A DNA stretch of 64,000 bases from Amoebophrya sp. A120 (taxonomy: Eukaryota > Protista > Dinoflagellata): the NCBI GenBank assembly GCA_905178155.1, contig CAJINV010000001.1:853643-917642 (forward strand). Direction: 5' to 3'. Numbering within the stretch: position 1 is the stretch's first letter; each line of letters starts with the position of its first letter. The notes under the pieces were generated by a model. The model worked only from the letters and a program-made list of their open reading frames with translations, made no database searches and had not been told where the DNA came from. Below are positions 23,001 to 62,400 of the stretch, one piece after another. Both the position numbers and the translations under genes were made by a program.

Positions 23001-26000
23001 CCCCCACCCTGCGGGACCAGAATCAATTGCTCCGCGACATGCTCGAGTCTGAGTTTGAGGAACTCCGTCTGGGTGTTTTGTTCGTAAAATTCCGCTAGCA
23101 GGGTGCTCTTCAGCGTGTCCGAGTCGAGGATGACCTTGCCGTGCACGCTGGCCGCGGTGTGCTGCTGAAAAATTTGGAAGTGGTGCCGCAGCTGCTCCAC
23201 GTCGTTGTCGTGGTGTACGCGCACTAGCTCCTCCAGCGCCTTCTTGCTGCGGAACTCCTTCTCGCGGCTCATGCTCATGTGGTCCACGATGTCCCCATGC
23301 ATCGACCACCGGACGCAGTACAGATTCCGGTGGCGGGTCAGTTCCACATTGTAATCCACAAAACGCACCTTCCGCTTCTGCTTCACCGTGTAGAACGTCG
23401 CCCAGATGGGGAGCACGAGGTATCAACTGCAAAAGTGTCTGGGTCTGGAAGAATCCAACTTCTCATGCTAAATCTGAAGCAGCGAAAAATCTGTGTTGCA
23501 TGATTACCAAAAGTCGTCCAGTTTTGACCAAGTCGCGAGGGAGTTTCTCATGCAGGATAGGCATGAGAGGGATCGCACAGAATCTGTCATGCTAGGTCCT
23601 GCATTCCAGACCTCATGGGTCATGGAAAAGCTGCATGACAAATCGCGCATTCTTCCAGACCCAGACATTTTTACATTTGATACGAGGGAGAGAAACGCAA
23701 CGTAACTCGCGTACGCCTGCTCCTCCATATCCTGTGCAAAAGTATCGTACTCGTATAAATGCATTACAAATTCCCTCAGCATGAGAAGGAAAATTTGTAA
23801 TGCAGATTGACCTTAGGTAAAGGATTTGTAATGCATGATTGCAATACGAGTACGATAGTTTTGCACTGGATACTCCAGACTCCACATCAAAATCGCCTTT
23901 TCCGCCGGGTCCTGCGCTGGTTGTTGCGTCAACAGTTGCCGCCGTTTCCGTGGAGGGGGATCATTTATCTGGCTCGTTGTTCTTGTACCCTCGTCAGCAG
24001 ATAGTCCTGTCATTCTTCTCCTCTTATCTATTTGATGTTCATCCACCTGCTTCGTCATTTTTCTCCTTGCGTTCTTTTCTCTCTGCTGAGCCTGGGTCTT
24101 TGCTTTCTGGTACGCAAGGAGATACCGGTCCGGTGTGTACCGCCAAAAATCCGGGTCGGCTTCGCGCTGCATTTGCATTTGCTCTGCAGTATTGGTGGAA
24201 AAAAGTTCGTCTTTCGAACGACTCGCTCCCTTCTCCTCGTTGCGAGATGAAAACTTTCTTCCCACTGAAGAGGCAATCGTGGCATGCTCTACTCCACTGC
24301 CACTGCTACCCGAGTGTCTCCCATGATCCGAATCGTCCACGCCGACTTCCTCTTCTTCTCCCTGGCTGGCTTGCAGCATTCTTGCGGAAGTAGAGCCAGA
24401 AGTTCCGGCAGCAGCACTAGAGGAAGGTCCGAGTGGAGTAGAGGACCCGAAATCAGCATAATCCGCAGTCTGTTCCTCGATCTCCTCCTCTTCTTCGGTA
24501 AACAGGAAATCTCCAAACGTGCGGCGCAGGCTATTACAGTGAAAAATGCCCCCCACCCCTGAAATTGGAAAAATTTGTGATGCGAAGTTTCCAAATGAAA
24601 ACTTTTTGTCATGCATGAAAGGAGTATGAATCTTTCTGCTGCAGAATCTAGGTGTGTATCCGTATCGCATCGCTTGCATGACAAGCGCCGCTCTTGCTGG
24701 GGTCTTTTGCAATACCAATGTTTGCTATTCACCATTGGAAACCTGTGATGCTGATAGGAGCAAGAGGGCGAATGTTTCATTTGGAAAGGTTTGCAATACA
24801 AATGCTCCCAAGTTCGGGGGTGGGGGCATTCTTCATTGTAATACAGGCCGATCGTGTAGTCCATCTGCGGGCCAGACAACCCGGTGGTCTATCCTGAGTA
24901 AAAACGTACCCACGCCAGAGTTGTAATGCAAATCTGCATGCTGAAAATGTTTCTCATGCGGAGCGTCATGAGAAGCAATTTCTAGTCGTGTTTTGCAATT
25001 TGTCATGCTCCAATCAGCATGGTATGCGATATCTGTGATGCTGCTGAGCTACCTCAAACAGCACTACACTACGAATCCAAATTTGTCATGCAAAAGAGCC
25101 AAAACTTGTGGATTTGTCTAGCCGATTCCCCATCTTGACTATGGTGTGGGTACGTTTTTACTCAGGATATGGTCAGGAACATCATTATCGTTACTAAGAT
25201 TCCCAGCACCACCGGGTAGGTGGACAGGGCGCGCAAGTAGCCCTGCATGATGCTCATGTGCTCCACCACCTCGACCGAGTTGAAGTACGCGTCCACGCGG
25301 GCGAGAAACGCGGGACTCGTGCCCTGTACGAACGGTGCGTCAAAAGCATCGTCGACCGAGTAGCTCAGGCCAGTGAATGACGCCCGGCCGCGGGGCAGGT
25401 GTGCCGCCCTGGTGCTCGACGTGTTGCCCTTGTTCGTTCTTCTGCTACCTGCTGTACCTCTATCTTTATTATTTCCCGCTCGACCACGACCCGGCGGCGC
25501 CGTGCTGTGGTTGCCCTCGGAAAGGACATTAAAATCGCTTTCCTCGTCCGTTCTCCGCCCGCGCGTCGCCGCACGCGTCGCTCGGCTGCTCGAATTGGAC
25601 CGCTGCTGCGTGGTCAGCTCCACCTCCGCGGCGAGCATTTCGCTGGGCGGTTTTCTGTTGTTCCCGAGCAACATGTGACTCGTTCGCTTCATTGTCGACC
25701 GGACGAAGGTCCCTGCGCGCTGAAAAAATTTCTTGGTGAAGTCTGCCGGGCTGCTTGCCGACGGCTGATCGTCCAAGTCCTCGTCGTCGTCAGTTGAAAC
25801 ATCGCCGCCGTGGTCTCTTCGTCGTGTCCGTCCACCTACGTTGGAAGATGCTTGACCTTCCTCGTCGGAAGTCAGTATGCTTGCATCCCGCTCTCCATCC
25901 TCATCCGCGGTGGTGGTCAACCCTCGGGCCAAAAACCCGAACAGGGATGGAGGACTTGTTCCGCCGATCGTTATTCTGTCGGACGTGGAATTGAGTACGT

Positions 26001-28133
26001 CTGCGCTGGCACCGTTGGCATAATTTCGACGTACATCACGCTCATGGGCCTCCGACAACTTTTCCCTTTCGCCATCGAATGTTCTTGATGATCCCATACT
26101 CCCTCTGTCCGTAGCCCCATGACTATTTCCGTCGCAACGAATCGGCTGCAGACCTTCGCGCAGGCTGATGTGCGGCGCGCCCTCGTCGTCCCACTGCTCG
26201 TGCAGCGCAAAGACGTCCTTGACAAACCCAATGGCCTGGGCGAAGGGGAGCACGGGTACCGCGTCCAAGCATGCCGCCTGCTCCAGCTTCTTGGTCACGA
26301 ACTTTTCCGCGAAGGGGAGGGATTGTTCTGTTGGTGCAGCTGGTGGTGCCGGGAGGCCAGAACTAGTGGAGCCTTTGCTTCTATCCGGCGAACTTCCATG
26401 GGGCGAAGAAGCGGCTCCGCCGGCACCTCCCCCGCCGGGGCCGTACACGAGTCCCTCGGCTTCGCGCAGCATCAGAGCGAGCTTTGACTCGGTGTCGAAG
26501 CAGATCTGGTCCAGCGCGGCGTGGAGCAGCTCCAGTTGGATATGAAAGTACACAACTCCCCCTCCCCCTCATTTGTCATGCTTAACAGACTGCGCTACTG
26601 AGCCCGGGGGGGTGCGGGGTCCGAGGGGTGCACAAAGCACAGCCCGGAACACCCGAACATGCCCCGCGACTGGCACAGGACCAGCAACGCAACTATTATC
26701 GTCGATCTCAGTTGTCATGCAAAATTTCAAATCCACCCTTTGCCTGTTAGTACTGTTTGCATGACAGATTCCGGAATACGAAAAAGCCCGCCAAACCCCT
26801 AGGAATTTGCCATGCAAAAGTTGCATCTTTGCCAGCGCTCGTGTTGCTGTTCATGCAACACAAATGAGCGGGAGGGGGAGTTGTGCACTGTCATATTGGA
26901 AACTGTGGGTGCATTCGAAGACCGAGGTCGGCAGGAGGTGCAGATCCCGGTGGAGCCGCAACGTCGCGCGCACGTGGAAAGGATCGAAGTGGTTGGTACC
27001 CTGATGAAAAAGTAGAGTGGTGCACTCACTTCTTTGTTGGTCTTGTTCCTACTGGTGCCCGCCCTACTTCGTATAAATACGCATGTTGACCACGACGACA
27101 ACATCTTCAGTAAACAACGACGAAAGAGGTCGGTCTTTCTCCTTAGTACCAAGCGAATTAAATGATGAAGCATGACAAAAGTGATATTTATTCTAGTACT
27201 TACAATGTTCGCCGCTTGGCCGCCGCCTCCTCCAGAGTCTCCCGCGTCCTCCTCCTCTTCCTCCTCCCCGCGCTTCCTGGCCCGCTCCCGGTGCTCCCGA
27301 CTGGAAATCGTTCGCCAGTCCGGCGGTTCGTAGAACATGACCCCCAGGAACGCCTTGTTTTTCACGATGTGGAGGGCCGGCGGGTTCAGGATGCTGTACT
27401 GTTTTGTCTTCGCCAAGTGGATCCAGTTCCCCGCCCGCGGGTCCAGCGCGTCGAAGAGGCACATGCCCTGCCGCGCGCACCCCGCGACCAGCTCGGAAAG
27501 GATCAGCTTGTGCAGGAAGTTGCGGTTTAGCTGGAGCTTTTTCCGCAAAACCATTTTGTCCAGGCCGTACGTGTCGGGACTGCTGCTTTTTAATAACCGC
27601 GCCACCTTCCTCACGTACTTTTCCTCCAACTCGAACTTCCCGCCCACGCGCAAGCAAATCACCAAAACCGCGCGCATATCCCGCTCACGGTGGGTGTGGG
27701 ACCGCACGCCGGCGGTGAGGGCCGCGATCTGGCGAGCCCGCCCAGAGAGTGTGCGCAGCAGGCTGGGAGTGGAGGCAGTAGAGTCTCTCGTGGAGGAGAG
27801 TTTCCGAGCGTGGGCCGCTTCGTCGAAAGAGCTGCTGGTTGAATTGCTTGAGGAAGTGCTGCTCGTAGCTTCATCTTCGCTGCTACGAGGAATGTCCTCC
27901 TCGTCCTCCTCACTGTCGTTTTGTACAGCATCGTCGTTTCTATCTTGTCCGGTGCCGCGGGATGCTTGGTTGTTCCTTGTTCGCTTTCCGCCGGGAAAAA
28001 TCGCACGGGCGCCCGAGCTGGAACTCGCATCGTCGACGCTCTCCGGAAACGGGATTCGCTCAGCGCTGTAGTTTCGGGATTTAGTCTCCCTATTCGCGAA
28101 AGAGCCGGCGCTGTTGCGCAAAAAGTCCATCAT
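20025..28133 (-). CDS. Anoctamin/TMEM16-like membrane protein
   Basis: One frame after removing 7 elements and GT-AG intron 27001-27203. Motifs LPIWATFY, LTKLEGHILRDQYNVSLALK and EYLEILVNLCFLTFLFPVVPLIAP match anoctamin segments. Confidence 0.8.
21626..21911. mobile_element. Introner-like element, family D
   Basis: TIR core AACGTCCCCACC; imperfect DR CAGAG/CAGCG; junction SL|PSFF in frame. Confidence 0.85.
22444..22767. mobile_element. Introner-like element, family E
   Basis: TIR TATTACAATGAAAAATGCCCCCTCCCCATATC (imperfect); DR TCCGC. Confidence 0.88.
23421..23682. mobile_element. Introner-like element, family B
   Basis: TIR core TGTCTGGGTCTGGAAGAAT; DR CGAGG. Confidence 0.93.
23728..23872. 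mobile_element. Introner-like element, family F (145 bp)
   Basis: TIR TATCCTGTGCAAAAGTATCGTACTCGTAT; DR CTCCA. Confidence 0.92.
24532..24843. mobile_element. Introner-like element, family E
   Basis: TIR TATTACAGTGAAAAATGCCCCC; DR CAGGC. Confidence 0.92.
24890..25169. mobile_element. Introner-like element, family D
   Basis: Perfect TIR TATCCTGAGTAAAAACGTACCCAC; DR TGGTC. Confidence 0.94.
26541..26895. mobile_element. Introner-like element, family G
   Basis: TIR TATGAAAGTACACAACTCCCCCTCCC; DR TTGGA. Confidence 0.92.
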
Positions 28134-30947: not shown

Positions 30948-33900
30948 CTACACTTGGTGGTAGTTACAGTTGTCATTGTCTCCGTACCCAACTTCTTGGT
31001 CCCCCTCCGCCCAGCAGACGTTGTGATATGCTTCGCCTAGCTGACTTCCATCTCGCGGACCATTGCAGCTGCCTCCGGGCGGCCCGCCAATATTAATCTG
31101 GTGGTTTGTGCCGCCGCTGGCAGTGTGCATGTACACGGAAGGATAAGGATTTGGATTCTTCCCCCCGTTGTAGTTGTTCATTCCGTTGCCCCCGTGCTGG
31201 TGACAAGATGAACCAAAAGCACGACCAGATGCAGCTGTTGTATTAAAACTGCTGTTGTTTCCACCAGCAGATACGGCTGAATTCGCATTCGTAGTGACCG
31301 CCAGCACGAAGGACACGGAGTCCACAAGCGGCTTCAGCGCGGCTAACCGGTCGTGCAGATCCGCAATTTGTGGGTTCAGCGGGTGGTCCTTCCACTGCAC
31401 AGTCACTCGGTGCGTGTTCCTCGTGTAGGTGTTGAAGTCCTGGTAGACGAGGGTGAGCAGTTTCGTGGTCAGCGCTTTCACACGAACGTAGTTGTCGCTC
31501 CCATGGCAGGAGATGAAAAGCTGCAGGGGCTGTTTGGAAACGTTTGAGACTTTATTTCATGCCGAAGCAGGGGTGCGAAGAAGAATAGATGAAGATGCAG
31601 ACTCATTCATTTTCACTCATGAATTATGAAAATGAATCGCATCGGGATTTATTTCTACATGATATAGAACATCACAGAAAGGAATCCAACTATCCCATCT
31701 ACAATACTACCTGTTCCGGCGCTCCCCCCACCCGCTGCGCGTCCTCATTGGTCGAACTGCCCTTGAGCCGCAATTTCGCCCCTGGCACCAGGGACGATAT
31801 GGGAGTGTCAGGATCGAAATCGACAAAATCGCAAAACTTGTATATGCATAGAATGTAGGGCACATAAGGCCTGTGTTGGGAAGAAGGCAAATGAGACCGA
31901 TTGCAAGCCTGTTTATTAATAGGGGAAGAAGACGCGTTGCCAGAGCAGCATGACAGGAGCAGTCTAAGTACTTTGCCCAAACAGCATGACAGACTGGATT
32001 TATCAGCCCCCAAAATTTGTCATGCGCCACTTGAAAACTGGGGGTCCAACTGGTATCGATTTCATGCATCGCAAATTTTTCGCTTTTGTTGATTTCGATC
32101 CTGACGCATCCATAGACGAGATCAGCTTCATGTTGTGCCCCCGGGGCCCGATCAGCCGTTTCGCGGCGCCGAACGGGTGGCGCGCGGGGATGCCGATCTT
32201 CACCGTGGCCAAAAACTTCTTGGACACCACGATCTCGCGAATCACCGCCCCGGTGCTCAGGTCGCGCTGCAGGAACAGCGCGCGCTCGTTGCCCAGCCCC
32301 GGCTTCTGAAACACTTTTGGGTGGTCCATCGACAGCTGTTGCTGCTGTTGCTGCTCGGAATTGCTCTTGTTCTCGTTTAATTGTTCCTGGTTGACAATAA
32401 TATTACAACCACTCTCGGCCCCAACTACAGCAGCAGTTGTATTGGAGTGCATCGCGGAGGACGCAGTGGTCTCTGAAGAACCGCTACGGCTCGTGCTCGG
32501 CGAAATGATCGCAGGCTGCACGGGGGCGAAGCCGGAAACGAAGTCGTGTATTGAGAGGAAAGATCCCCCCTCCCCATATTGAAAAGGTATGTCTCCGGAA
32601 ATTTGTGTTGCTGATTTGAGGTCACAAATCACATCTGTCTTGCAAGAAGACAAGGGCAAAAGCTTCCGCCATATTATCGAGGCGTTTTGTCATGCCGTTG
32701 GGCCTAAAGGGAGGCCGTTTGCCATGCTGAGCAACTAGACCCATACGCCCCCAGCTAGCCGGCGGATCTGGCCGCCATGCCTTTCTGCAACACAAATTTG
32801 TGTACCCAAATCCAGCATCAGAAATTTCGTTTTGATATGGGGAGGGGGGATTTTTCCTTTTGATATCGTGCTGCTGTTGCTCCTCCTGCGATTTCAGGTT
32901 TTGATGATTGCCCGCACACATCATTCCTGTCGCAGTCTGCGTCCGCTCCTGCTGCTCAAAGTAGTCGACCGGAATTTGTGGCTATGGTGTGAATCACCTC
33001 CCCACGCATCACCTCCCCACCTCCCTACCTCCCCACCCTGAGGAGGTGCCTCCCCACGTGTGGGGAGGTGCCTCCCCAGTAGTGGGGAGGTGGGGAGGTA
33101 CTTCCCCACCTCCCCATCTCCCTGCCGTCCAACACTTCCCCACCGCGTTGCGCTTCCCCGCGATGGTCGACCAGAACGTGCCTACGTCTGGATGCTTGTT
33201 GCTTGGCTTCGTTCTGTGCTATCGATCTACCTCGCGGCCATGAAGCCAGCAGCTATCTGCCACAACGCACGTGAGCCCTCATCCTGCATGACAGATGCGC
33301 CTATGTACGCGGCCACCAGATGTCGGCCGGTGGCCCTAACGTGGCGAGCATGGAACGACCCACGGGGCACGCAAACCAATGCCGCAAGGAGTCAAGGCAG
33401 GGAGGCACGCCGGGGGCCAAGAGCGCACAACATTCAGAAGGGCCAGGGAGAAGGGGAAGGCAAAAGGGTGACGCGCAAGGGCGGAGAAGGGAAAGAGCAC
33501 ACGAGGAGGAGACAATCGTCGGAGCCAGCCGGCGCGACGGCGCCATCGCGCCAGCTGGCCTCGACGAGCCTAAACCCCGAGCCCTAAACCATAGACCCGA
33601 AACAACCAAGGCCGCAGCCGGCTCTGCTTCTGCATCACCTCCGGCCGTTGCGGTGGTGATGCGGTCGCGTCACGAGGTGATGCGGGGGAGGTGGGTAGGT
33701 GATACGGGTGGGGGGGTGATGCGTGGGGAGGTGATTCAAAGGGGTGGGGAGGTGATTCACACTCCTACCGGAATTTGTTCTTTGCTCGTGGTAGGCGAAA
33801 TGATCGCAGGCTGCACGGGGGCGCAGCCGGAAATGAAGTCGTGCTGCTGTTGCTCATCCTGCGATTTCAGGTTGTGATGATTGCCCGCACACATCATTCC

Positions 33901-48535: not shown

Positions 48536-49347
48536 TGTTTCTGCGAGGTGGGTAAGGTGGAAATGACCACAGGCACGGTCCCTCGCCTCGCCACAATTGC
48601 ACCACGTTTCTCTGTCGGCAAAGAAAGCAATAGCTGCCCTTTTCTAGTGACGTCATTTGCAGTGATTTTGTTTCTGACGCTTGCAAACAGAAATAAGCAA
48701 CAAATCAGGACGCTCGTCTCAACGATAACCAAAGACACTCATAACTTGCACGGTGGCACGACGGTCAGATGATGCAAGAATTTCATTATTTCTGTAAATA
48801 AAGACGTAGCAGGCACTCGTTCTCTCACACCATCAGGTGGGTGCAAGCTCATACGGTGTTGCAATCCACCTATTTTTGTCTCGAGAGTCATAGGCAAAAA
48901 GAAAAGAGTCGTCATCGGGAAAACGCGCAGGGGGCTCTCGCAGAAAGTCGGCCTAGGCAGTGGACAAGGGTCTGGAATCTGATCGATCGATCCATGTCCC
49001 CGTTGACCGGTTTTCTTCTTTCAGACCTTCTGATATACCATTACTACTTCATTGAAATTATACAGAGTCATTGTATCGAAATTCATCTTGAAACAAAAAA
49101 AAACGCAGTTGCTTCTTGGAAACAACTGCCCCCACCTCGCGACTTCTATCTTTCCTTTCTCAAAGCAGCTTAAAAAACTTCGCGCCATGCTTTGGTGACG
49201 TCCAATTTTTCATCATACCCATACGGAAACATAAAAAACGCAATACTTTTTCACTTAGCTGGTTGCAAAAAAAAACTACGTACATACTTCGACCTCACCA
49301 AAAAGATGAACAAGCGACTACTATAAGAATCGCCTTCTCTACGACTC

Positions 49348-49600
49348 TATCAAATGCAAAAATGTCTGGGTCTGGAAGATTTTGAGATTTGTCATGCTTG
49401 TCTGGCATGACCAAAAAGTTTGTGATGTGTGTCCAAGAAGAGACCCTTTTGCCTGTCATGCAAAAACGCAGTCTGTCATGCGAAAAACGCAACACAAAGA
49501 AGCGCAGCTATTTCTCATGCTTGCCTGTGCATTACAGAGCATTCACTATTCCCAACGCAGCATTACAAGTTTCCAGACCCAGACATTTTTGCAATGCATA
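49348..49600. mobile_element. Introner-like element, family B, apparently in the 3'UTR
   Basis: TIR core AAAAATGTCTGGGTCTGGAA; DR GACTC; lies 8 nt after the predicted stop (49609-49611). Confidence 0.88.
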
Positions 49601-49608
49601 GACTCCTT

Positions 49609-50928
49609 CTACGACAGTGTCATCGCGGTTCTCGCAGCGGCCACCATAGCCAGCGCCCCCTTGGTCAACGAGTAGGCTTTATGGATTGCAAAAGTGTCTG
49701 GGTCTGGAAGATTCTAAACTTGTAATGCTGTCGCTGGATTCTAAAAAAATTTGTATTGCATGACCAGCAGCAAGGGGACTCCAGTGTGTGCTACGCGGAA
49801 AGGGCATTTCTCATGCGGTAGAGGCATCACAAAGCCCCCTAAAAATATGTGATGCTAGGGCATGCATCATAGATATCATGGGTCATTCAAAATATGCATG
49901 ACAAACCTGGCAATCATCCAGACCCAGACACTTTTGCAGTTCATAGGCTTGCTGCTGCTCGGTCTTCATCAGGGTGCTGGTTCGCAAATACTGGACCGCC
50001 GCCGTGCTGCCCACCGCCACCTGGGCTAGACCACTAGTCGACGCGACAAAAACCACCGGCGGACCGCAGATGGCCGCGGGCGACCCATTGGCGGCATCGA
50101 AGCTGGCGTGCTCCGAGTCGGCCCGCAGCCGCAGCCCCTGCGTCACTTTGCCGACTGTGATGGAGAGGTATGGAACAAAAGCGGAAAAACAAAAAAGCTC
50201 TCCATAATTGGGCCCCCAAACCCCTCATTCGCTGAAATGCTGCTGCTGTTGCTGCTCCTTCTGTGCAAAAAAAAATACTTAAACAAACGGTGCAGAGATT
50301 ACAGAACAATTCGCAGCGCAACTCAAGACACACGGGGTCGGGAAACAACGGAAGCAGCTTTATTCCTGTGCGCGGTTCATACCACGGACCGATCGGTGCC
50401 GGCGGCGACGTTGAAGAAATCGGCCAGGGTCGCCGGGCTGCTTGCCTCCAGGGCGACGGGCCCGGTTGCGTTCATGGTCGGGGTGTAGACGTTGGTGCCG
50501 TCCGCCTTAGTCGTTTCGGGATCGAGCCCGCCAAGGACCGCGTAAGTGCCGTCCGACTTCTGGTACTCCAGGAACATACTCTTCGTCAAAGCGGCGTCCG
50601 CATCCCCCACGTTTTTGATGGTGATGTATTTCACGTCCTGCGTCTGAGTGAACGAAATTCTGACCTCCTCGTCTGCGGGCGCAGAATCCGCATTTGCGTT
50701 CGGGTTGCCGAGAGCCGTGTAGCGGCTCTGGTAGTCGGTGGCATTCGTGATGGCGCAGGTCACGTTGTTTACTTCCGTGGGCTGCGTAACCGAGAACGCA
50801 TCCGCAGCCAACTGCTCCACCTCGGCGGCACTGCCTTGGCCCGCCACAAATACCGGGGAGGAGGAGAGCTGTCCGAATGTGAGCAGCTTTGCGGCGAGGG
50901 AAACGCACCGGAACTGCGACATCATCAT
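49609..50928 (-). CDS. Hypothetical secreted or surface protein
   Basis: Signal-like N-terminus; 183-aa ORF joined to 49883-50146 by a putative intron 50168-50382; last exon follows element 49680-49945. Confidence 0.55.
49680..49945. mobile_element. Introner-like element, family B
   Basis: TIR core TGCAAAAGTGTCTGGGTCTGGA; DR GGCTT. Confidence 0.92.
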
Positions 50929-51383
50929 TTTGGAGGATAAACAAACGAAAATCGAGAAATACTCTTTTCGGCCTCCTTCCGCCGATTTACTTAACTTGAC
51001 AGAAGAGAAGAAAATCTTTAGATTCCTCTACCGCTTTCACTCATGCACTATTCTCTCTGCGCGCATGCTCGCTCTGGATACGATCCGGCTTAGGCTTTTG
51101 ATTTTGATGAATAGCAATGATGTACGCGCTAGACTGCGCGTGAGCAGGCGTTTCTACCTTGCACGACTGCTAAGGATCGCAAAAACAGGAGCTCCTGCAC
51201 GTGCGCGCTCGAACTCTCAGTCACTCCCTGGTAAATGCTGTCAAGCAACACGCGACACTGCGGACGGGCAAATTTCCCTTCAACAAACAAGCTTCGGTAA
51301 GTGTTGGGAAGAATTGTCAAGAATCTCACTTTTCAACAATTTTTCCCACCCAAGAAATCGCTGCGTTGGTTCGCATAGCGAAA

Positions 51384-53186
51384 TCAGTTTTTATTTGATA
51401 CAAATACCGCATGAACCCGCCTTTCATGTTTCAAATGTGGCAGTTGACTCGGTCGTGGATGTAGTAAGACGCTCCAGTCCTCTATTTTGGAACCGGTACC
51501 TTGTTCAAACACCTTAGCGGCACTACGCAGGGTATCCCCGTGCTCCGCGAGTACTGCTGAAGTTGTTACCAGATTCTCAGCTTGTTCGGGAAAAAAAGAG
51601 TCGCTCGCACTCGCTTCTCGTGCCGCTGCGGAAGTACTGGATACGGTGTCGTGGCTTTCTTCTACACTCATGACGCACGTGCGACGGTATAGCTCCGACT
51701 GAAAGGCGAAATACGGATCTTGAAGCGGAATGAAAGCACGCCAATTTGTGTGGGCATTCTTCCGGGTAACTACATGTTGCCCAGTAGTTGTGCGTCGTGC
51801 CTGGCCCTGGTCGTGTTCCTCATGCAAGTCTGGACTCGTCGGCACAAATCCGCCGGCGTAGCGCTGATACTGCCATCCGAAATTCTCGAAAAACAGCATT
51901 TTCGGTCCACACTGTCGAAAAATGTTGCCCAAAACGTGCTCCGGTAACCCGGGTGGAGGGTCTAGGGCAAGCAGGTCGAGCGACGAGGAGTGCTGGCGGT
52001 TTGGCGAATCTCTTCCTCCGTTGCTCTTCGGGCAGAGTATTTCCGTCGCCTTTTGCGGGTCTTCGGGCAGAGGGCCCAGTGGGAAACTCACGTTAGCAAA
52101 TGGAGGTTGCGGGACGAGACCCGCGGTCTTAATAGTACCCACAATATTGTCCTCGTCACCGTTTGACGAGAAAAGAATCTCTCTCGTTCGGTCAAATGAG
52201 TCGGAGTTACGTCCGGCTTCAGATGAGGTTTGCATCGCATGACGAAACTGTTCCTCTAATCGCCGAAATACCCTTTGTGAGTTTTCAATCGCGTCCGCAT
52301 CCACATCGGGCGCGACCAGCTCGAATTGCAGCAATTCAGCTGCAAGCACTGGATCTAGTTCGGCTCCCCCACTACTGATCTCCGTCTCCACCCAAGCCCT
52401 TCTTGTTCCAAGTACCGCACGCCGTGCCAGGTACCCCGCGGCCAGTGACAGCGCGGGCCCGTAGCCGCTGTAGCCCAGGAAAAAGACCGCGACTCGCCGC
52501 ACGGCAGGGTGAAAACCCAGGCAGAAAAGCGCTTGCCCCGACGCAGACAGGAGATCCTGGTGACCGCGCGGCCGCCCATCGGAACCACTTTCGTCCACCC
52601 CGGAGTTGCGGCACACACCGCCCCAAACGTAGCTGCGGAGCAAAGGGGCAATGGCGGTTCGGAAAAAACGAAAGAGCAGGGGCCCACTTTGCGTTGATCC
52701 ATCTTCTCCCGGTTGTAGTGCTCCAGTTTTCAAGCCACCGGCGAGAACACTACCTTCCGTGTTCGTTGCCTCATCCACTTGGACGCTGCTCGGGAGAACT
52801 TCCCGGAGAGCCCGCAGAAGAAATTCCTCGGCTGTTCGTGTTCTTTGCGCGTGCTGTTCTTCCGTGGTTTTCTCTGCAGCAAGAACAGTGCTGCTGTAGC
52901 TCGCTCCATCCTCGTGGCTTTCTCCCGCCTCGTCGAGTGCAGTATCGAAGGCCACACTGCTAGATGTGATGTTTGTCGGGAGAAGGTGTCGCAAAATGCT
53001 TCGCACATTCTCGACGCAGCGTGGCAAAAAGGTGCTAGAGGGCGGTAGAAAAATTTCTTTATCATTTTGCAGCTCTACTGATACTGTCATCGTTAGTACG
53101 TACTGGTGCAGCTCTGTGAAGAACGCGTTCTTGTTGGGGTGCTCTGCAACACTGCTCACAAACAAGAGAAGCCACCTAGTACTCAC
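51384..53186 (-). CDS. Hypothetical protein (about 600 aa)
   Basis: Long ORF on the same strand as its neighbours; no recognised domain; start uncertain. Confidence 0.6.
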   Translation of the reverse strand: MSTRWLLLFVSSVAEHPNKNAFFTELHQYVLTMTVSVELQNDKEIFLPPSSTFLPRCVENVRSILRHLLPTNITSSSVAFDTALDEAGESHEDGASYSSTVLAAEKTTEEQHAQRTRTAEEFLLRALREVLPSSVQVDEATNTEGSVLAGGLKTGALQPGEDGSTQSGPLLFRFFRTAIAPLLRSYVWGGVCRNSGVDESGSDGRPRGHQDLLSASGQALFCLGFHPAVRRVAVFFLGYSGYGPALSLAAGYLARRAVLGTRRAWVETEISSGGAELDPVLAAELLQFELVAPDVDADAIENSQRVFRRLEEQFRHAMQTSSEAGRNSDSFDRTREILFSSNGDEDNIVGTIKTAGLVPQPPFANVSFPLGPLPEDPQKATEILCPKSNGGRDSPNRQHSSSLDLLALDPPPGLPEHVLGNIFRQCGPKMLFFENFGWQYQRYAGGFVPTSPDLHEEHDQGQARRTTTGQHVVTRKNAHTNWRAFIPLQDPYFAFQSELYRRTCVMSVEESHDTVSSTSAAAREASASDSFFPEQAENLVTTSAVLAEHGDTLRSAAKVFEQGTGSKIEDWSVLLHPRPSQLPHLKHERRVHAVFVSNKN

Positions 53187-53876
53187 TAAATAGGTCGTCT
53201 CGTCTCGACTTCTGTCGTTGTATCAAGGCGCTACGAGGATAAGCAACTTCTCTTCGGAGAATAAGAAAGGACTCCGAATGAAGGCAAGCACCTTAGAGGA
53301 ATTTTAATCTTTAGTGCGCATGGAGCAAACGGAACACACGAAGGTGTGACGACAAAATGTTAGCTGTGTGCGACACGTGGGGTTTTCACCGTCAGTTTGG
53401 TATCATGGTCCTCTCCAAGCTCCAAAGCGAACTTTTCATTTTTCACCGATTCTCTGGTGCGGTTCTCTTCGTATCTTCTTCGCATGCATTTTGTTACATT
53501 CTACAAGTTCTGGCGGCTTGATGCTCCGTCCGTGCCTGGTCCGGCGTGAGGTACTTGTGCATTGATTTCAGGTTCTTGGCATTCATTGGCACCCAACCGA
53601 ACGGGGCTCATTGAAAATCATAGCCCGAGCTTCTTCAAACAACAACAAGCTCATCTTGTGCATTATTAGTTACGGATGAAAAGTCAATAGTGTCTAAAGC
53701 AGGTTGTATGACGCAATATCGAGAGAGTTCTTCATACAAAGGAAATTCAGCTTTTAATTTTTCAGCGCATTGATGAGTCAAGAAAATAAGTCGAAAATTC
53801 GTAAAAGTGTGTCTAGGTTTAGTAATCGGCTGCAAGCAAGTAAGCAAGTTGTCAACGCATCCTGCTGACGTGGTCC

Positions 53877-55830
53877 TCACGCACGCCCAACTTCCATTTC
53901 GAACTTCGAAATGGCGCCATTCATTTTCGTGACTACCCGCTGCATTTCCACGGCTTCTGTCTCCATTTCGGCAAGGTCCTGTGCAAGGAAGTCGTCATTT
54001 ACTGGTTGGTTACAACACAACCTTCGAAGAGAGAACGAGATGCATCAAGGCTGTCGTCATCAGACGCCTGCACGATTGGAAAAAGAGTGTCGGTTTTTCA
54101 TAGTACGCGAAAAGTAGCAGTAGATAACAATTATGGATACGAAAATACCTCTTCCATGAGTTCCCTATCGCTGTCGAGCATGGCAAATATGTCCCGCATT
54201 TCCGCTCGCACCTCGCCAATCTCTTGCCCCACGTCCGTCTTCATCGTTTGCACCGATTTGTAGAAGTTCACGAAAACTGTTGAGAGTCAAAAACAATGAA
54301 GTAAACACTCGTTTGGTTTTGGAATAGTGCTAGTTCATCATCCGTGAAATGCTGTTGCGGATTATCATGCCAATTTGCAACGTGTGAGTCAAGCTCAAAG
54401 AGTTCCATGTGTCTGCTTCTGGTTCAGTCTGTTTCTGAGGTCGACACTACTTACGTTAAAATTCAACCAACCAAGAACATATTTCATACTCTTCTCGTCC
54501 ACATGTGGCTTTGCTGGGTCGGACCCTAAGTCACGGAGTATGTCGCGCGCGGCGTCTGACCTATCTTGATTCGTGTTTAAATCGCGCACCATTTTCAACA
54601 TCTGCAGCTTTAGACCGGTGGCTGAATCGAAGAGTGAAGACGCCTGAGTGTGTTTCAAGAAAAAGATTTTTTACCATTTATGCCTCGTCCTTGCAAATGG
54701 AGTTTTTTCTTTGTTTGTTTCAAACGAAAAGAGTTCGGAAAAAGCTAAAGGCAATGCAAATCGATCAAATGCTGTTTCTTATGATAAATACCATGTCCCT
54801 GGTGACTGGACTGCCGCGACCGGTGGTATCGATAAACGGTTTCGCTGCTCCTCTTGACCCCGACTTTCCCTTGGACGGCGAGCTCTTCTCGGGTGTGCCG
54901 GCAAACGCGCTAAGGTACCTGTTCAACATTGATGTCTTGCATGTTGTACTCTCTCCGGAATAGAGACAGCTCCACCCGACCACATACATTCAATCATTGA
55001 CTTTCGTGCTTTCTTACCAGCGAACGCGTGCAAGTTGCAAACACAACCAATTCTCGAAAAACTACCAACATCAAGACAGTACGACTGGTCATATTTGCTT
55101 GCGTTTGGCCTTGGAAATGCAGCTTGGCTCACTTGCGCTGGTCGCTTCATCCCTGCAAAGGGCTTGCTCTTCAGCTTGCTGGCGCTACTTGACGACGAGG
55201 ACGAAGAGCCCTGGATTATGGTCGGGGAAGTGTTTGTTTGAAATTGAAGCTATTTTGTTTTTCATTATAGCGTCACGCCACAACCAGAACTTAGTGCCTG
55301 TGCCAGTGCCCGTATAATGTTAATGCAGTACTAAATGTAAGTACAGATAACCGACAACACCAATCAACCCAAGACGTACCCTTGGCTGCGACGAAGACAG
55401 ACTCCTGGCTCGTGCGTCCGAGGTTTTGTTAAAGGTCAACGGGTCGTACATGTTTACTTGCGGCAGCCTGGTTTGCGTCTTCGCTATGATGTTCAGGTCG
55501 TCGAGCGAGGGCGAATTCCTGATGTTCATGTTCCGCGACAGCGGATTGCGGGGTGCGGCCGTTCCCACCATGCTTGTTGGAGATGAGCGAGTAGTTGACT
55601 ATCACTCTAGTGGGTGCAGCGGGACAACAGGACACGACCTGTGGATGAACCGCCTTACTCGGCAGCGAAGACGAGCGTGGTTTGTTTTTGTCGTCAACTT
55701 CTGCGTCACAGAACCGGCGGTACTCTTGTTTCAACACGTAATTCTTGTTCGTCTTCGTTGGAATCAATGTGAAGTGGCTGCAGTAGCAATCTTCTCGACT
55801 GGAGCGGACCTTCGTGGGTGGAGACTACGA
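53877..55830 (-). CDS. Hypothetical multi-exon protein with C-terminal coiled coil
   Basis: Short exons with GT donors, ending ...LDSDRELMEE|DLAEMETEAVEMQRVVTKMNGAISKFEMEVGRA*; 5' end approximate. Confidence 0.4.
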
Positions 55831-56449
55831 CCACAAATAGTGCAGGTACAACAGTGGTCCAGTTTTTACAAGCCCAATAATTTTTGATGGAAGCTACACT
55901 GCATTGTGCTTGTGATTCTTGCGTCACCGAATTCGAACGTTCAAAATTTTTTAGCTTGTTGCCATGAAAACGATCGACGGGCGGTTAGAAGTTAGAAAAC
56001 GATTGCTCGAGTGGTCATGATCACGTTAGTTTTACAACGAAGCACCATGCACCTCTTCTACGGAACGACAAGACACGGTATACGATATCCATTCGTAAAG
56101 CCTCGTCTCTCCGGACTGGCGACCGATCTCTTCTATACCCTGCTCCGCGCTCGACTGATCCTCGGGTAAAGCACGACGAACCACTCTCAACGAAGCAGGC
56201 CGAGTCCAGCAAAGGCGCCTTTCACGAAAATTCACTGATTCGACAGCGGGCGCAGCCGTGCTTTTATTTGTTGGTGTGCACAGATGGACCAAGGAGCACC
56301 AGCAGCAAACTTTTTCGTGGAAAAAAGCAAGTCAGTGGGAAAATACTTCTTGTTGGACGCATTCCCTGCTCCTTCATTCTTCGGTGTAAAGATGAAGTTC
56401 GCCGTGCAGAGAGGCATGGCAGCAAAAGCTTGCCAGGGTCTCACATAGA

Positions 56450-59400
56450 CTACCTGTCCTCATCTGATTTGTCGCGCTGTCCTACAGCATTTTTTCCCCC
56501 AGAAGCGTCCACCGCGCTTTTTTGTTTATCCAGTTCATCTTCCTGCTCGCCCTCGGCAACTTCTACACCCTCCCCCTCCCCCTGGTTCGCAGCTTCTTCC
56601 CCCTCCACACCACCCTCCGCCGCGCCGGTAAACATTTCCGAAAGACTTGCGGAGATACGCTGGAACAGTCCCTGTCCACCCGCCGCCTTTTTACGCATTT
56701 CGCGCTCCCGCACGCCCTGCACACTCCACATGCAGCAGAACTGCACCTTGCAGCGCTCGAGCTCGAACTGCTTGTCCACCATGGGCCGACCGGTGTCCGG
56801 ATCTGGCACAATCAATGGCTGGATGTTCAGAGTGTGCAGCTTGTAATTGCGGTGGAGCAACCCGGGCGTTTCCGCGTAGCTCAGCGTCGGATCCGCGATC
56901 GAAGGATCGTTCTCGATGGACAGTGGTCTCATACTATCGCCGCTTTTGTCCTTTGATGATGATCCACGACCACCGAACAAGCCCTTCATTAATCTCCTTC
57001 CCACGCCGGTCCTCACCCGCACGCCATTGTCGTATTCCAACAACTCCGCCGGGCCCTCGCAGTAGTCCTTGAGACTAAATTCCACCGTGCCGATCGGCGT
57101 GTCGCTGACGCTGAAGACGCCATTCGCGTCCAGCAGAACCAGCTCGCACTTCAGCTCCTGAAACCGCAACTCCATTTCCCGCACCTCGATCTCCACCACT
57201 TCGCTCCACTCCGGGAACTCCGTGTCGTCGAGCGCGCGGGTGTTTCCGATGGCGCGCTTGTTCGCAAACCGGAGTAGCTGGAAATCATCGGTGTCCAGCA
57301 CGTCCGCGGACGGGGAGATGTAGTGAAAGGTCTCCGAGTTGCCCGGCGGCGCGGGATCGCCGGGGACCAGCGGCTGTTGTTCTGTGCCAGAAGTATCTTC
57401 CTTTTTCTCCGGATCGCGCAGCCGTAGCCGCACTTGTATATATGGGTCGCTGAGCGTGAGCACGTCCGCCTGGGGCACGTTGCTGGCGCCGCGGAGGTAA
57501 ACGGCGAACACAAAGCATTTTTCCTCGTCGTCGCCGAGGAGGTCCCCAACCGTCTCGTACCGACTGCCAAGGTCATTCGACTCGAGCTTCGTGGACCCCG
57601 GAACGCGGCGCCGCTCCGCGCGGCGCTCGTTAAACGCCTGCGCCACCGCGCCTGACTGTGTATCTGCTTCGTTTTGGCCTTGTTGTGCTTGCGCTTGCGC
57701 CCCCGTTGAACTAGAACTCGAACTTCCCCCCGCTGCCCCAGCGGCCGTGCTTTGCGGCGCACCACCCGCTTTCCGAAGCCCTGAGGGGACGGCGTCCGCA
57801 AAGCCGGCCGGCGACTCGCCCGCAACGACCTGTGGGCGATCGTCAATCCAATCCGGCATGCCGACCACTCCCTGACGGAACAGCTTCTGTAAGATCTGGC
57901 TGGGTCGCTCGCGCCCCTGGTTCGCGTCCCGCACCAGCACCGGCTGCAGCCGGCGCAGCTCCGGCAGTACCTCGTCTTTCAGCCGCAAGGCGTCGATCGC
58001 TTTTTCGTACTGACCGCACAGCTATCAAATGTAAAAATGTCTGGGTCTGGAAGAATGCCAGTTTGTCATGCTTGTCTGGCATGACTCTTAAATCTGTCAT
58101 GCACATTACGAAAGAGCCCCACTTTTCTGTCATGCAGAAACGTAGTTTGTCATGCAGAATAGGCAACACCTAGAAGCTCAGAAACTTGTCATGCTGAGCC
58201 AGCAATTGTGGCCTCCTCATGATATGCCACACAGCATCACAAGTTTCCAGACCCAGACACTTTTACATTTGATAACAGCTTCTGGAAGATCTCCAGATAG
58301 TAGGCGTGGTTGGTCACGTCGGACAGCCGGTCCCGCAGTCTCACGTTCTCGTTCGCGAGCACCCTTGCGTATGCATTGCAAAAAATATGTCTGGGTCTGC
58401 AAGATTCTGAGACCTGTCATGCACGTTTTGCACGAGCCATGAAGATGTCTGTGATGCACGCCCTAGCACCACAGTATTTTTGAGGGTTTCTTGATGCCTA
58501 TTCCGCATGAGAAACAAAGGCCCTCTCCGCGCAGAAAAAATTGCATATCCAGCCTTTGCTGCTCATGCAATACAGATTTTTTCGGAATCGCAATGCAGCA
58601 TCACAAGTTGCATTCTTCCAGACCGAGACATATTTGCACTGGATAGTGCGGCCCCGGACCCCAAATCCAGTTTCGCCAGCGGGTCGGGCATATCTAGTGT
58701 AAAAGTGTCTGGGTCTGGAAGGATGCAACTTGTGATGCGACCTTTGGACTCTACATAAAATCTGTATTGCATGAACAGCAAAAGGTCCAACTTTTGCTAC
58801 GCTAAGAGGACATTTCTCATGCGGTATGAGCATCAGAAAGCCCTCGCAGAATCTCTGATGCTAGGGCATGCATCACAAACCTCAAGGGTCATGCAAAATC
58901 AGCATGTTGACAAACTCCTGCATTGTTCCAGACCCAGACATTTTTACATTTGATAGGGCAGAAACGTGCACACCTCCGGCCGAAACAGCCGGTTGTTTTT
59001 CACGCTGGCTTCGTGCTCCTGAAACCGCTCGCAGTTCAGGAACCGCGCCGGCCCGCGGACGTGCAGTAAGGGGATGAGTTTCGTCTTCTTAGCCTGCTGG
59101 TCGACCTTGTTAGTACTCTTCTCGTGACCGCCGGTTTTGTCAACAAACTGCGTGACCTCCTCTGGCTGGAGCGGGCGCTCCCCGGAGGTCAGCAATAGCT
59201 CCACGTGGTCCCGATGGCACGCGGCGAACTCCGCCATCTCGTTCTGGACGGCGCCGAGAAACGCGTCCTTCCGCTGCTCCAGCACCCGGTAGGGCACGTC
59301 GAATTCGAAGCGGCCCAGCGTGCGGATCTGGCCCCCGGAGCTCACGTCCGCCTCCGCCAGAATGTATGAGAGTGAACAACAACTCCACCTCTCGTCTATT

Positions 59401-62400
59401 TGTATAGCATAAGCAGCAACAGAAGCAATGCCACAAAGGTAGCTTCTGCATGACAAACCCGCACATAGATTGTAGTCCTGTTTGGGCGACGTCCAAAACT
59501 TGCCATGCGAAGAGTGTTTAAAGGCAAGAGGTGGCCTCGGTATTTTGCATGACAAATGAGGGAGAGGCGGAGCTGTGCACTCTCCTAGAATGCCGTCGGG
59601 GGCGAGAAACATGTCCCGGTTCAACTGCTCCATCTGCGCCTTTCTCAAATGTAAAACTGTCTGGGTCTGGAAGAGTGCGCGGTTTGTCATGCAGCTTTTC
59701 CATGTCCCATGAAGCCTGGAATGCAGGACTTAGCATGACAGATTCTGCGCAATCTCTCTCATGCCTATCCTGCATGAGAAACTCCCTCCCGACTTGGTAA
59801 AAACTGGACGACTCTTGGTAATCACGCAACGCAGATTTTTGCATGCTTCAGATTTAGCATGACAAGTTGCATTCTTCCAGACCCAGACACTTTTACATAT
59901 CATAGCCTTCTGCAGCTCCCAGAACCGCTTCTCGACCGGATCCCAGGAACTGAGCATGCGATCGTGCTCCTTGCCCATGTTCACCAGGTCCTTCTGGTCG
60001 AACTTCGGCCCAGCGGTGCGGCGCTGCTGTTGAACAAAAGAACCAGATGCACTTTGATGCTGTTGTTCCTTTTGCTCGTGAAGCATTTTGCGCTGCAGTG
60101 TGCCAAGCACGACGAGGTCGGCGTGCAGCTGCGACAGGAGCTTGTGCGTCTGCACATGGGGGCCGGACTCCTCGAAGTTGTGATTCATCTCGGCTTTGTT
60201 GTGCTTTTTCGGCCGCGCCAATATGTCGCGCAACGCGGTGTCCTCGATGTGCCGGTTCTGATCCTGCTCTGCCACCAGGTTCGTCACACGTTGGACCATG
60301 GAAATGTCGTCCTTCTTTTTCCCAGCAGGACGATTGCCTCCAGAAGTAATTATCTCGGGAACAACCTCCTCCTTCTTGCCGCCACTCGACCCTCGCGCCA
60401 CGTAGTTGAGTCGCTGCCGGTCGGGGTCGTTCAACGCCTCCACTTCCGCCACCAGTTCCTCTATTCTGAGTAAAAACGTCCCCATCCCTTAGTTGTAATG
60501 CTAATCCGCATGCTGGCAATGTTTCTCATGCGCATCCCCATGAGAAGCATTTTCTAGTCCTGTTTCGGAATTTGTCATGCTCCAATTATATAAATTCACA
60601 TTCCTGGCGCAATTCACCCAACGAGCGAAAGCGCGCGGAAACGATGATAATCGAAGGCAGTGCTGACGCGCGCTGCAGTCCTCGTCGCGGGACGCCCTGC
60701 GACGGTCACACTGGCGAGCAAGAAGAGAACCCGGCCGGCACAGCGAGCTACAAGTAGCAAGCCGCGCGAGCCAAGCTCTCAAACCCCACAGAGCCACGCC
60801 CCGGACGTGAAGGTGGGCCAAGCCGTGGAACACGACATGGCCCACCGAACATCTGGGGAGGCTTGCGGGGGGTGCCGCAGGGTATCTCGCAATGAAGCTG
60901 CAGCAGCTGGGTGGGAGGGCGGGGAAAAAACGCCGAGTCCAGGCAAGCCCGGACGAAGCGGAGATTCTAGATAGAGGACAGAGAACCAGCGGAAGCTGGT
61001 CGACATCGGGCAGCCAGCCCGACGTCGGAGTGTGCAACCCTCTTGCTTGATCATGTAAATTGATATAACTGCTACGCACGTTATATAAATTCACATTCCT
61101 GGCGCAATTCACCCAACGAGCGAAAGCGCGCGGAAACGATGATAATCGAAGGCAGTGCTGACGCGCGCTGCAGTCCTCGTCGCGGGACGCCCTGCGACGG
61201 TCACACTGGCGAGCAAGAAGAGAACCCGGCCGGCACAGCGAGCTACAAGTAGCAAGCCGCGCGAGCCAAGCTCTCAAACCCCACAGAGCCACGCCCCGGA
61301 CGTGAAGGTGGGCCAAGCCGTGGAACACGACATGGCCCACCGAACATCTGGGGAGGCTTGCGGGGGGTGCCGCAGGGTATCTCGCAATGAAGCTGCAGCA
61401 GCTGGGTGGGAGGGCGGGGAAAAAACGCCGAGTCCAGGCAAGCCCGGACGAAGCGGAGATTCTAGATAGAGGACAGAGAACCAGCGGAAGCTGGTCGACA
61501 TCGGGCAGCCAGCCCGACGTCGGAGTGTGCAACCCTCTTGCTTGATCATGTAAATTGATATAACTGCTACGCACGTTATATAAATTCACATTCCTGGCGC
61601 AATTCACCCAACGAGCGAAAGCGCGCGGAAACGATGATAATCGAAGGCAGTGCTGACGCGCGCTGCAGTCCTCGTCGCGGGACGCCCTGCGACGGTCACA
61701 CTGGCGAGCAAGAAGAGAACCCGGCCGGCACAGCGAGCTACAAGTAGCAAGCCGCGCGAGCCAAGCTCTCAAACCCCACAGAGCCACGCCCCGGACGTGA
61801 AGGTGGGCCAAGCCGTGGAACACGACATGGCCCACCGAACATCTGGGGAGGCTTGCGGGGGGTGCCGCAGGGTATCTCGCAATGAAGCTGCAGCAGCTGG
61901 GTGGGAGGGCGGGGAAAAAACGCCGAGTCCAGGCAAGCCCGGACGAAGCGGAGATTCTAGATAGAGGACAGAGAACCAGCGGAAGCTGGTCGACATCGGG
62001 CAGCCAGCCCGACGTCGGAGTGTGCAACCCTCTTGCTTGATCATGTAAATTGATATAACTGCTACGCACGTTATATAAATTCACATTCCTGGCGCAATTC
62101 ACCCAACGAGCGAAAGCGCGCGGAAACGATGATAATCGAAGGCAGTGCTGACGCGCGCTGCAGTCCTCGTCGCGGGACGCCCTGCGACGGTCACACTGGC
62201 GAGCAAGAAGAGAACCCGGCCGGCACAGCGAGCTACAAGTAGCAAGCCGCGCGAGCCAAGCTCTCAAACCCCACAGAGCCACGCCCCGGACGTGAAGGTG
62301 GGCCAAGCCGTGGAACACGACATGGCCCACCGAACATCTGGGGAGGCTTGCGGGGGGTGCCGCAGGGTATCTCGCAATGAAGCTGCAGCAGCTGGGTGGG

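What the first reader, a model, noticed from the sequence alone, without database searches (positions are those of the whole stretch)
23421..59904. The same 262-bp element serves as an intron in opposite orientations
Seen: 59643-59904 is the reverse complement of 23421-23682 along its whole length (e.g. GAGGGAGTTTCTCATGCAGGATAGGCATGAGAG), and both hosts are minus-strand genes. Adjacent elements 58370-58645 and 58691-58955 are also mutually inverted in one gene. Known: spliceosomal signals (donor, branch point, acceptor) are directional. Inference: removal depends only on symmetric features such as the TIR stem and DR.
Basis: partly seen in the sequence, partly recalled or inferred. Interest (0 to 1): 0.85.

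Follow-up and report, generated by a model that had tools for sequence, protein, structure and literature searches.

The report
Transposon introns spliced in both orientations
In the marine parasite Amoebophrya, copies of one small inverted-repeat transposon sit in genes facing either way and are cut cleanly out of the RNA in both; these introns are already described, and the cut is likely guided by the element's mirror-image ends.

Summary
Observation holds with one correction: 59643-59904 is the reverse complement of 23421-23682 at 237/262 nt, not identical. Both lie in intact minus-strand genes of Amoebophrya sp. A120. They are the introner elements of Farhat 2021 (PMC7789003): MITE-like, TAT...ATA ends, 5-bp target duplication, 23 in this window. 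RNA-like contigs (one sample) skip 23421 exactly (element + 5 nt), and one contig lacks both mutually inverted elements 58370 and 58691. The 59643 joint was not displayed; annotation and the A25 orthologue support it. Inverted repeats carry the same 5' and 3' motifs in either orientation, so directional signals are not excluded, and one old intron is removed without a direct repeat. That intron gives a cut 1 nt before TAT and 4 nt after ATA, so introns would begin N-U-A like the canonical GUA; Farhat's Table S4 agrees (18 of 18 top classes begin NT). Introners in both orientations are reported elsewhere (review PMC10228655); I found no such statement for Amoebophrya. Known system, open mechanism. 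No earlier scan note on this DNA.

The parts
23421..23682 (+). Element A, 262 bp, family F1 introner (orientation 1); intron of the anoctamin gene, removed as 267 nt
   Evidence: Joint 23414>23682 skipping 267 nt in 3 of 4 RNA-like contig sets; P0003 junction
23416..23420 (.). Left copy of A's 5-bp target-site duplication (right copy 23683-23687)
59643..59904 (-). Element B, 262 bp, family F1 (orientation 2); intron of the C2-domain gene, 267 nt with one duplication copy
   Evidence: 237/262 to A inverted; P0001 junction of 267 nt and gap-free A25 orthologue; RNA joint row not displayed
59638..59642 (.). Left copy of B's 5-bp duplication (right copy 59905-59909)
58370..58645 (-). F1 element, orientation 2, duplication with one mismatch; intron of 281 nt
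   Evidence: Absent from X1 record 4, which holds 130 nt where the genome has 938; difference 808 = 257+281+270; P0001
58691..58955 (+). F1 element, orientation 1; intron of 270 nt, 45 nt from its inverted neighbour
58023..58274 (+). F1 element, orientation 1; intron of 257 nt
49348..49600 (+). F1 element, orientation 1; intron of 258 nt
   Evidence: Joint displayed in X1
49680..49945 (+). F1 element, orientation 1; intron of 271 nt
   Evidence: Joint displayed in X1
12552..12821 (-). F1 element, orientation 2; annotated intron of 275 nt in a pectinacetylesterase-family gene
   Evidence: P0004 junction and gap-free paralogue P0005; no RNA laid here
50165..50382 (-). Old, eroded introner-like intron (GT...TC, 218 nt) with a short terminal stem and no direct repeat; fixes the cut at 1 nt before TAT and 4 nt after ATA
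   Evidence: Joint 50164>50383, both=0, one X1 contig; ends read; fold
21626..21911 (.). Element of another family with a mismatched duplication; the RNA keeps the transcript-upstream copy, so the intron starts 0-3 nt before TAT
   Evidence: Joint 21620>21912, both=3, in 4 of 4 runs
20028..28133 (-). Host gene of A: anoctamin-family protein P0003, 7 introner introns and 1 GT-AG intron
56606..63998 (-). Host gene of B (runs past the window end): C2-domain protein P0001, 6 introner introns

Best explanation
These are copies of a small non-autonomous inverted-repeat transposon (an Amoebophrya A120 introner) inserted either way round in genes and removed from the RNA with exactly one copy of the 5-bp target duplication, likely by a relaxed major spliceosome that reads the element's symmetric ends. 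Shown: the anatomy, both orientations, exact removal, intact proteins. Inferred from one unambiguous junction plus one compatible one: the cut lies 1 nt before the terminal TAT and 4 nt after the terminal ATA. Inferred: the intron then starts N-U-A-U, the genome's canonical GUAU/GUAC/GUAA donor without the need for G, supplied by either TIR; the predicted 20-30 bp terminal stem would hold the ends together and set the 3' cut by distance instead of by AG. Orientation would not matter because both the motif and the stem are in the TIR.
For: Exact removal: 7 of 7 elements in 19900-27300 skipped as element+5 nt; 16 of 16 introner junctions in three annotated proteins equal element+5; X1 record 4 coordinates match removal of both orientations. 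Register: 50165-50382, 21626. In that register +2 is T and +3 is A in 23 of 23, +1 is free (A8 C8 G6 T1) and none ends in AG. The six GT-AG introns seen here begin GTAT (3), GTAC (2), GTAA (1). Farhat Table S4: all 9 top A120 classes and all 9 top A25 classes have T at +2; A25 IRs begin TTA. Pyrimidine-rich CAG sites 9-11 nt inside the 3' arm of 23421, 23728 and 24890 are not used in the displayed contigs. A terminal stem is predicted on both strands for 22 of 22 elements; z about -7.2 for A and B. Farhat reports nearly all spliceosomal proteins and U2, U4, U5, U6 in A120, with U1 not detected. A U2-type spliceosome handles non-GT/AG introns in Fritillaria.
Against: No lariat, branch point or enzyme was tested. 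The TAT/ATA conservation is partly built into my scan (at most 1 mismatch allowed) and is equally explained by transposase needs. The register rests on one contig at one eroded intron that begins with GT, and Table S4 boundaries may carry aligner bias. G-U and A-C mismatches in the sense-strand stem are equal (16 and 16 of 420 pairs), which gives no sign of RNA-level selection on the stem. I saw no consistent branch-point motif at the 3' ends (by eye). A long stem would hide the very motifs a spliceosome must read. Euglenid introns with the same anatomy are reported to leave as full-length circles without lariats.
Confidence: 0.5

Rival explanations
1. A non-spliceosomal, structure-guided cut-and-ligate system (like euglenid nonconventional introns, or in principle an endonuclease plus RNA ligase) recognises the TIR stem and cuts at fixed distances from its base; the TAT/ATA ends matter only to the transposase. 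This is closest to the first reader's idea.
For: No GT/GC-AG reading for 21 of 22 elements; good AG sites inside the stem are ignored; U1 not detected; euglenid introns have TIRs, offset pairing and circular excision products; 3 of 8 F1 copies show a compensated TIR pair at columns 15/282 (related sequences, weak).
Against: U at +2 and A at +3 match the canonical donor in A120 and, from the paper, in A25 with a different TIR offset; 1% (A25) and 15% (A120) of canonical introns share the IR/DR layout, which suggests one machinery; no G-U bias in the stem.
Confidence: 0.37
2. The skips are reverse-transcriptase template switches across a hairpin at direct repeats; the mRNA keeps the elements and the genes are dead or are read by ribosome bypass.
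For: Hairpin plus short direct repeat is the classic layout for this artefact (established knowledge, recalled); all RNA evidence here is cDNA-type contigs from one sample.
Against: 50165-50382 is skipped with no shared letters; depth inside 21626-21911 is zero in 4 of 4 runs while flanks are covered; retention breaks the ORF for 7 of 7 elements in gene A and 4 of 5 tested in gene B; the A25 orthologue is gap-free across the sites and 43% identical.
Confidence: 0.06
3. The elements are cut out of the DNA (somatic excision, as with ciliate IESs) before transcription.
For: Transposon anatomy; exact removal with one duplication copy is what a clean DNA excision could give.
Against: Run X5, flat at about 25x over exons and canonical introns alike, has contigs running from exons into the elements, and none of its 7 displayed joints is an exact skip (378 joints not shown). 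X1 also carries five GT-AG splice joints, so it is RNA.
Confidence: 0.03
4. The elements are self-splicing ribozymes.
For: Strong predicted folding.
Against: A ribozyme core is strand-specific, yet both strands work; interiors differ between families; no Rfam match in the window at gathering thresholds.
Confidence: 0.02

Closest known systems
Amoebophrya A120 introner elements / non-canonical introns (Farhat et al. 2021, PMC7789003)
   Same: Same strain by protein identity; IR starting TAT, then about seven variable bases and a run of A; 3-5 nt DR; hairpin; repeated families; these introns are implied by the NCBI protein models.
   Different: The paper's 'orientation' hits concern gene order only; it reports no clear end signature and variable DR positions, whereas the window shows a uniform 5-bp duplication (21 of 23 perfect), TIRs of about 25-35 nt and one inferred cut register.
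Micromonas / Aureococcus introners (Huff et al. 2016, seen only through review PMC10228655; Gozashti et al. 2022, PMC9860276)
   Same: TIR/TSD transposons that become introns; reported to insert in both orientations; opposite-orientation pairs are allowed for in the 2022 search.
   Different: They carry or co-opt canonical splice sites; here 21 of 22 elements offer no GT/GC-AG reading.
Fritillaria borealis non-canonical introns (review PMC11282704; Soo et al. 2026, PMC13326754)
   Same: MITE-derived introns with TIR and TSD and non-GT/AG ends, removed by a modified U2 spliceosome.
   Different: Preferred AG-AC/AG-AT ends, U1 kept, U2AF paralogues; A120 ends are free at +1 and at the last four bases, and U1 was not detected.
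Euglenid nonconventional introns (PMC6221363; review PMC11282704)
   Same: TIR-based stem joining the ends, offset pairing (+4..6 with -8..-6), TSD-like repeats, suspected MITE origin, mechanism unknown.
   Different: Offsets differ (here +2 pairs with -5); Y|R borders there; excised as circles there, untested here.

Membership tests
Amoebophrya A120 introner elements | Located in the A120 genome | tested here: met
   Three exon queries hit A120 proteins at 100% identity
Amoebophrya A120 introner elements | Terminal inverted repeats starting TAT, variable bases, then a run of A | tested here: met
   against the description
Amoebophrya A120 introner elements | 3-5 nt direct repeat at the exon-intron borders | tested here: met
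   5-bp duplication perfect in 21 of 23, one mismatch in 2
Amoebophrya A120 introner elements | Repeated family with RNA-supported, non-GT-AG removal | tested here: met
   8 F1 copies in the window; joints; no GT-AG reading in 22 of 22
Non-autonomous TIR DNA transposon (MITE) | Short, non-coding, TIRs, fixed-length TSD, many copies | tested here: met
   145-355 bp, stops in all three sense frames of A and B
Non-autonomous TIR DNA transposon (MITE) | A cognate autonomous transposase with matching ends | not testable with these tools
   No genome held; Farhat found no transposase in A120, Gozashti 2025 assigns some A120 introners to TIR transposons
Major (U2) spliceosomal intron | GT/GC...AG ends | tested here: not met
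   Possible for 1 of 22 (B, GC-AG) in any of 6 registers
Major (U2) spliceosomal intron | Donor core U+2, A+3 | tested here: inconclusive
   23 of 23 in the inferred register, but partly imposed by the scan and the register rests on 1-2 junctions
Major (U2) spliceosomal intron | Lariat with branch adenosine, snRNP dependence | not testable with these tools
   Only contigs cover the locus; raw-read runs X8 and X9 do not
Euglenid-type nonconventional intron | Stem joining the intron ends | tested here: met
   Predicted only: 20-30 terminal pairs in 22 of 22
Euglenid-type nonconventional intron | CAG/CTG at +4..6 / -8..-6 and Y|R borders | tested here: not met
   Position counts
Euglenid-type nonconventional intron | Excision as full-length circle without lariat | not testable with these tools
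   No suitable reads

The most novel reading that the evidence does not exclude
Amoebophrya's 'signature-free' introns obey one hidden rule: cut 1 nt before the TIR and 4 nt after it, exactly one target duplication in total, leaving N-U-A at +1..+3. Its spliceosome has dropped U1, G+1 and the AG and uses the transposon's own terminal stem as a ruler, so that any such transposon becomes a perfect intron at any site and in either orientation.
Probability: 0.3. Interest if true: 0.78.

Novelty: already known. Interest (0 to 1): 0.4.

Why it matters
How Amoebophrya removes about 60% of its introns without GT-AG ends is an open question (PMC7789003). Natural flipped copies show that nothing strand-specific in the element's interior is required, which confines the signals to about 35 nt at each end plus flanks. 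If the single cut register holds genome-wide, the apparent diversity of splice sites is just target-site sequence, and the mechanism becomes testable with a few mutations. It would also explain why these transposons spread through coding exons at little cost. The elements and their intron role are already published, and two-way insertion is reported for other introners, so the surprise is moderate.

Tried and rejected
No whole genome is held for this window, so no genome-wide orientation or register count. No listed holder is on record as RNA; X1-X4 are guessed RNA and I treat them as RNA because X1 carries five GT-AG joints. The joint table was crowded by the DNA-like run (15 shown, 378 not), so the joint at B was not seen, and both lay calls are spent. 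A TIR motif scan of metagenome contigs found 0 matches. Rfam: 0 matches. Wobble test: no bias. A relaxed scan for more eroded elements gave only unconvincing candidates. Two rows (5709-6110, 11847-12291) were dropped as weak; 58370-58645 and 60462-63930 were added by hand. The apparent inversion of 26541 against 59365 is supported by local score only (94 against 44), not by global identity, and is not used. Two short joints inside elements (52 and 59 nt, sides 21-25 nt) were set aside as probably from other copies. F1 orientations 5:3 do not differ from even (p 0.73), with little power. Huff 2016 and Roy 2023 are not held; Farhat's supplementary figures (S19-S25, snRNA alignments) are pictures and could not be seen, and may bear on the register and on U6. 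Earlier scan notes: none for this genome or sequence, one unrelated.
Full report
Observation. Element A (23421-23682) and the reverse complement of element B (59643-59904) align without gaps at 237/262 nt; with 35 nt trimmed from each end the interiors match at 175/192 inverted and 50/192 same-strand. So they are two related copies in opposite orientation, not one identical sequence. 58370-58645 and 58691-58955 are also inverted relatives, at 199/281. A strict scan for TAT...ATA ends, a TIR and a perfect 5-bp flanking duplication finds 18 elements in the window against 0-1 in 10 shuffles. The relaxed list had 23 rows; I dropped 2 weak ones and added 58370-58645 and the interrupted 60462-63930, giving 23, of which 21 have a perfect duplication. 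Family F1 has 8 copies: 5 oriented like A (23421, 49348, 49680, 58023, 58691) and 3 like B (12552, 58370, 59643). A second family also occurs both ways (271 and 13023 against 31798).

Identity of the DNA. Three exon queries hit proteins named Amoebophrya sp. A120 at 100%. A lies in an anoctamin-family gene (P0003), B in a C2-domain gene (P0001), 12552 in a pectinacetylesterase-family gene (P0004); all map to the minus strand. The elements fit the introner elements of Farhat et al. 2021 (PMC7789003; I read the abstract, sections 10, 11, 12 and 16, search passages and text passages of the supplement, not its figures): IRs starting TAT, short DRs, hairpins, 29,850 repeated introns in 1,954 families in A120.

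Are they introns in both orientations? In four contig sets from one sample, guessed to be RNA, 7 of 7 elements in 19900-27300 are skipped by exactly element + 5 nt; A is skipped (267 nt) in 3 of 4 runs. In 48000-60440, X1 shows joints for 49348 and 49680 and five GT-AG introns. The joints of the B host gene were not among the 15 rows shown. However, X1 record 4 holds 130 nt where the genome has 938, and the 808-nt difference equals 58023, 58370 and 58691 each plus 5. Since 58370 and 58691 face opposite ways in one contig, both orientations are removed whichever strand is read. For B itself the support is the annotated protein (267-nt intron) and the A25 orthologue, which aligns without a gap across the site; the annotation may rest on the same kind of RNA data and need not be independent. 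All 16 of 16 introner junctions in the three proteins equal element + 5. Retention breaks the reading frame for 7 of 7 elements in gene A and 4 of 5 tested in gene B; 59365 is open in frame yet the contig piece ends at its border. Run X5, which behaves as DNA, runs into the elements.

Where is the cut? A perfect duplication leaves six equivalent positions. Only B can be read as GC-AG and none of 22 as GT-AG. Two junctions narrow it. The eroded intron 50165-50382 is skipped with no shared letters, starting 1 nt before TAT and ending 4 nt after ATA. At 21626 the duplication has a mismatch and the RNA keeps the transcript-upstream copy, so the intron starts 0-3 nt before TAT. In the -1/+4 register all 23 introns have T at +2 and A at +3, any base at +1 (A8, C8, G6, T1) and none ends in AG; the TAT conservation is partly imposed by my scan. 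The six canonical introns seen begin GTAT, GTAC or GTAA. Farhat's Table S4 lists 9 predominant A120 classes and 9 A25 classes, all with T second, and A25 IRs begin TTA, though the paper concludes there is no clear end signature. The scarcity of T at duplication position 5 is mirrored by scarcity of A at position 1 (1 and 2 of 23), which looks like a symmetric target preference, not splicing selection.

Stem. A and B fold with z about -7.2 and a terminal stem; 22 of 22 elements are predicted to pair 20-30 terminal bases on either strand. Pyrimidine-rich CAG sites 9-11 nt inside the 3' arm of three RNA-verified introns are not used in the displayed contigs, which drop rare variants. Against RNA-level selection on the stem, G-U and A-C mismatches are equal, 16 and 16 of 420 pairs. 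One TIR pair is compensated in 3 of 8 F1 copies, which DNA-level symmetry could also give.

Mechanism. That does not follow, because each TIR presents the same motif at the 5' end and the same motif at the 3' end in either orientation. What the flip does show is that the interior carries no required strand-specific signal. I favour a relaxed major spliceosome that reads N-U-A-U from the TIR and sets the 3' cut by distance from the stem (0.5): A120 keeps nearly all spliceosomal proteins and U2, U4, U5, U6 but no detected U1, and Fritillaria offers a precedent (PMC11282704 section 6 and passages; PMC13326754 abstract and passages). A structure-guided non-spliceosomal route as in euglenids is a close rival (0.37; PMC6221363 passages). 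Template switching (0.06), DNA excision (0.03) and self-splicing (0.02) fit poorly. No step of the chemistry was tested here.

Novelty. The elements and their removal are published. A review states that Huff et al. 2016 found introners inserting in both orientations (PMC10228655, one passage), and Gozashti et al. 2022 allowed for opposite-orientation pairs (PMC9860276, passages and section 7). Gozashti et al. 2025 discuss A120 introners without an orientation result in the passages seen (PMC12130899). Ten searches gave no statement of two-way splicing or of a fixed register for Amoebophrya, but Huff 2016 and Roy 2023 were not held and may contain one. Verdict: real, already known as a system, with a modest addition that sharpens an open question. 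Interest 0.4.

Noticed in passing
window 60462-63930: An element of the 21626/24890 family (232/285 identity once the insert is left out, perfect 5-bp duplication) is interrupted by about 3.2 kb at 60587-63771 holding four 495-bp tandem copies and purine/pyrimidine inverted arrays; the annotated protein treats the whole 3,474 nt as one intron, so the ends may work over long distance. No RNA laid here.
   Followed up: partly
window 60504-62765 (-): The open frame through the 495-bp tandem array has a summed Pfam hit to ORC_WH_C (E 3.6e-9, no single stretch passing); possibly a captured gene fragment or a repeat artefact.
   Followed up: no
all elements, e.g. 23421-23682: TCATGC/GCATGA motifs are about 12-25 times denser inside elements than outside (6.7 and 4.5 against 0.26 and 0.37 per kb), shared across families, often 35-48 nt from the ends and roughly 40 nt apart; a candidate transposase or splicing-factor site.
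   Followed up: partly
window 59643-59904: B is the only element with a damaged 3' terminus on the sense strand (AGA for ATA) and also the only one with a possible GC-AG reading; chance or compensation.
   Followed up: no
window 59365-59587: This element is 228 nt with its duplication and has no stop in the host frame, so retention would give a longer protein; the annotation removes it.
   Followed up: partly
window 23683-23727, 24844-24889, 58646-58690: Elements often sit 45-46 nt apart, leaving exons of 40-41 nt after removal; may reflect local hopping or a chromatin spacing preference.
   Followed up: no
window 53409-55778 (-): A well-covered transcript with five GT-AG introns and no detected introner, in line with the reported split between canonical-only and NCI genes.
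   Followed up: no
window 59818-59898: Raw RNA run X8, which does not cover this locus, has about 150 reads matching the TIR part of family F1 at 90-95% with foreign flanks: a relative of the family is transcribed in that sample.
   Followed up: no
window 32861-34782: Near-identical tandem duplications (973 and 828 bp spacing) with G-rich/C-rich palindromic arrays, next to element 32549-32865.
   Followed up: no
window 8798-9741: Run of 944 N (assembly gap).
   Followed up: no
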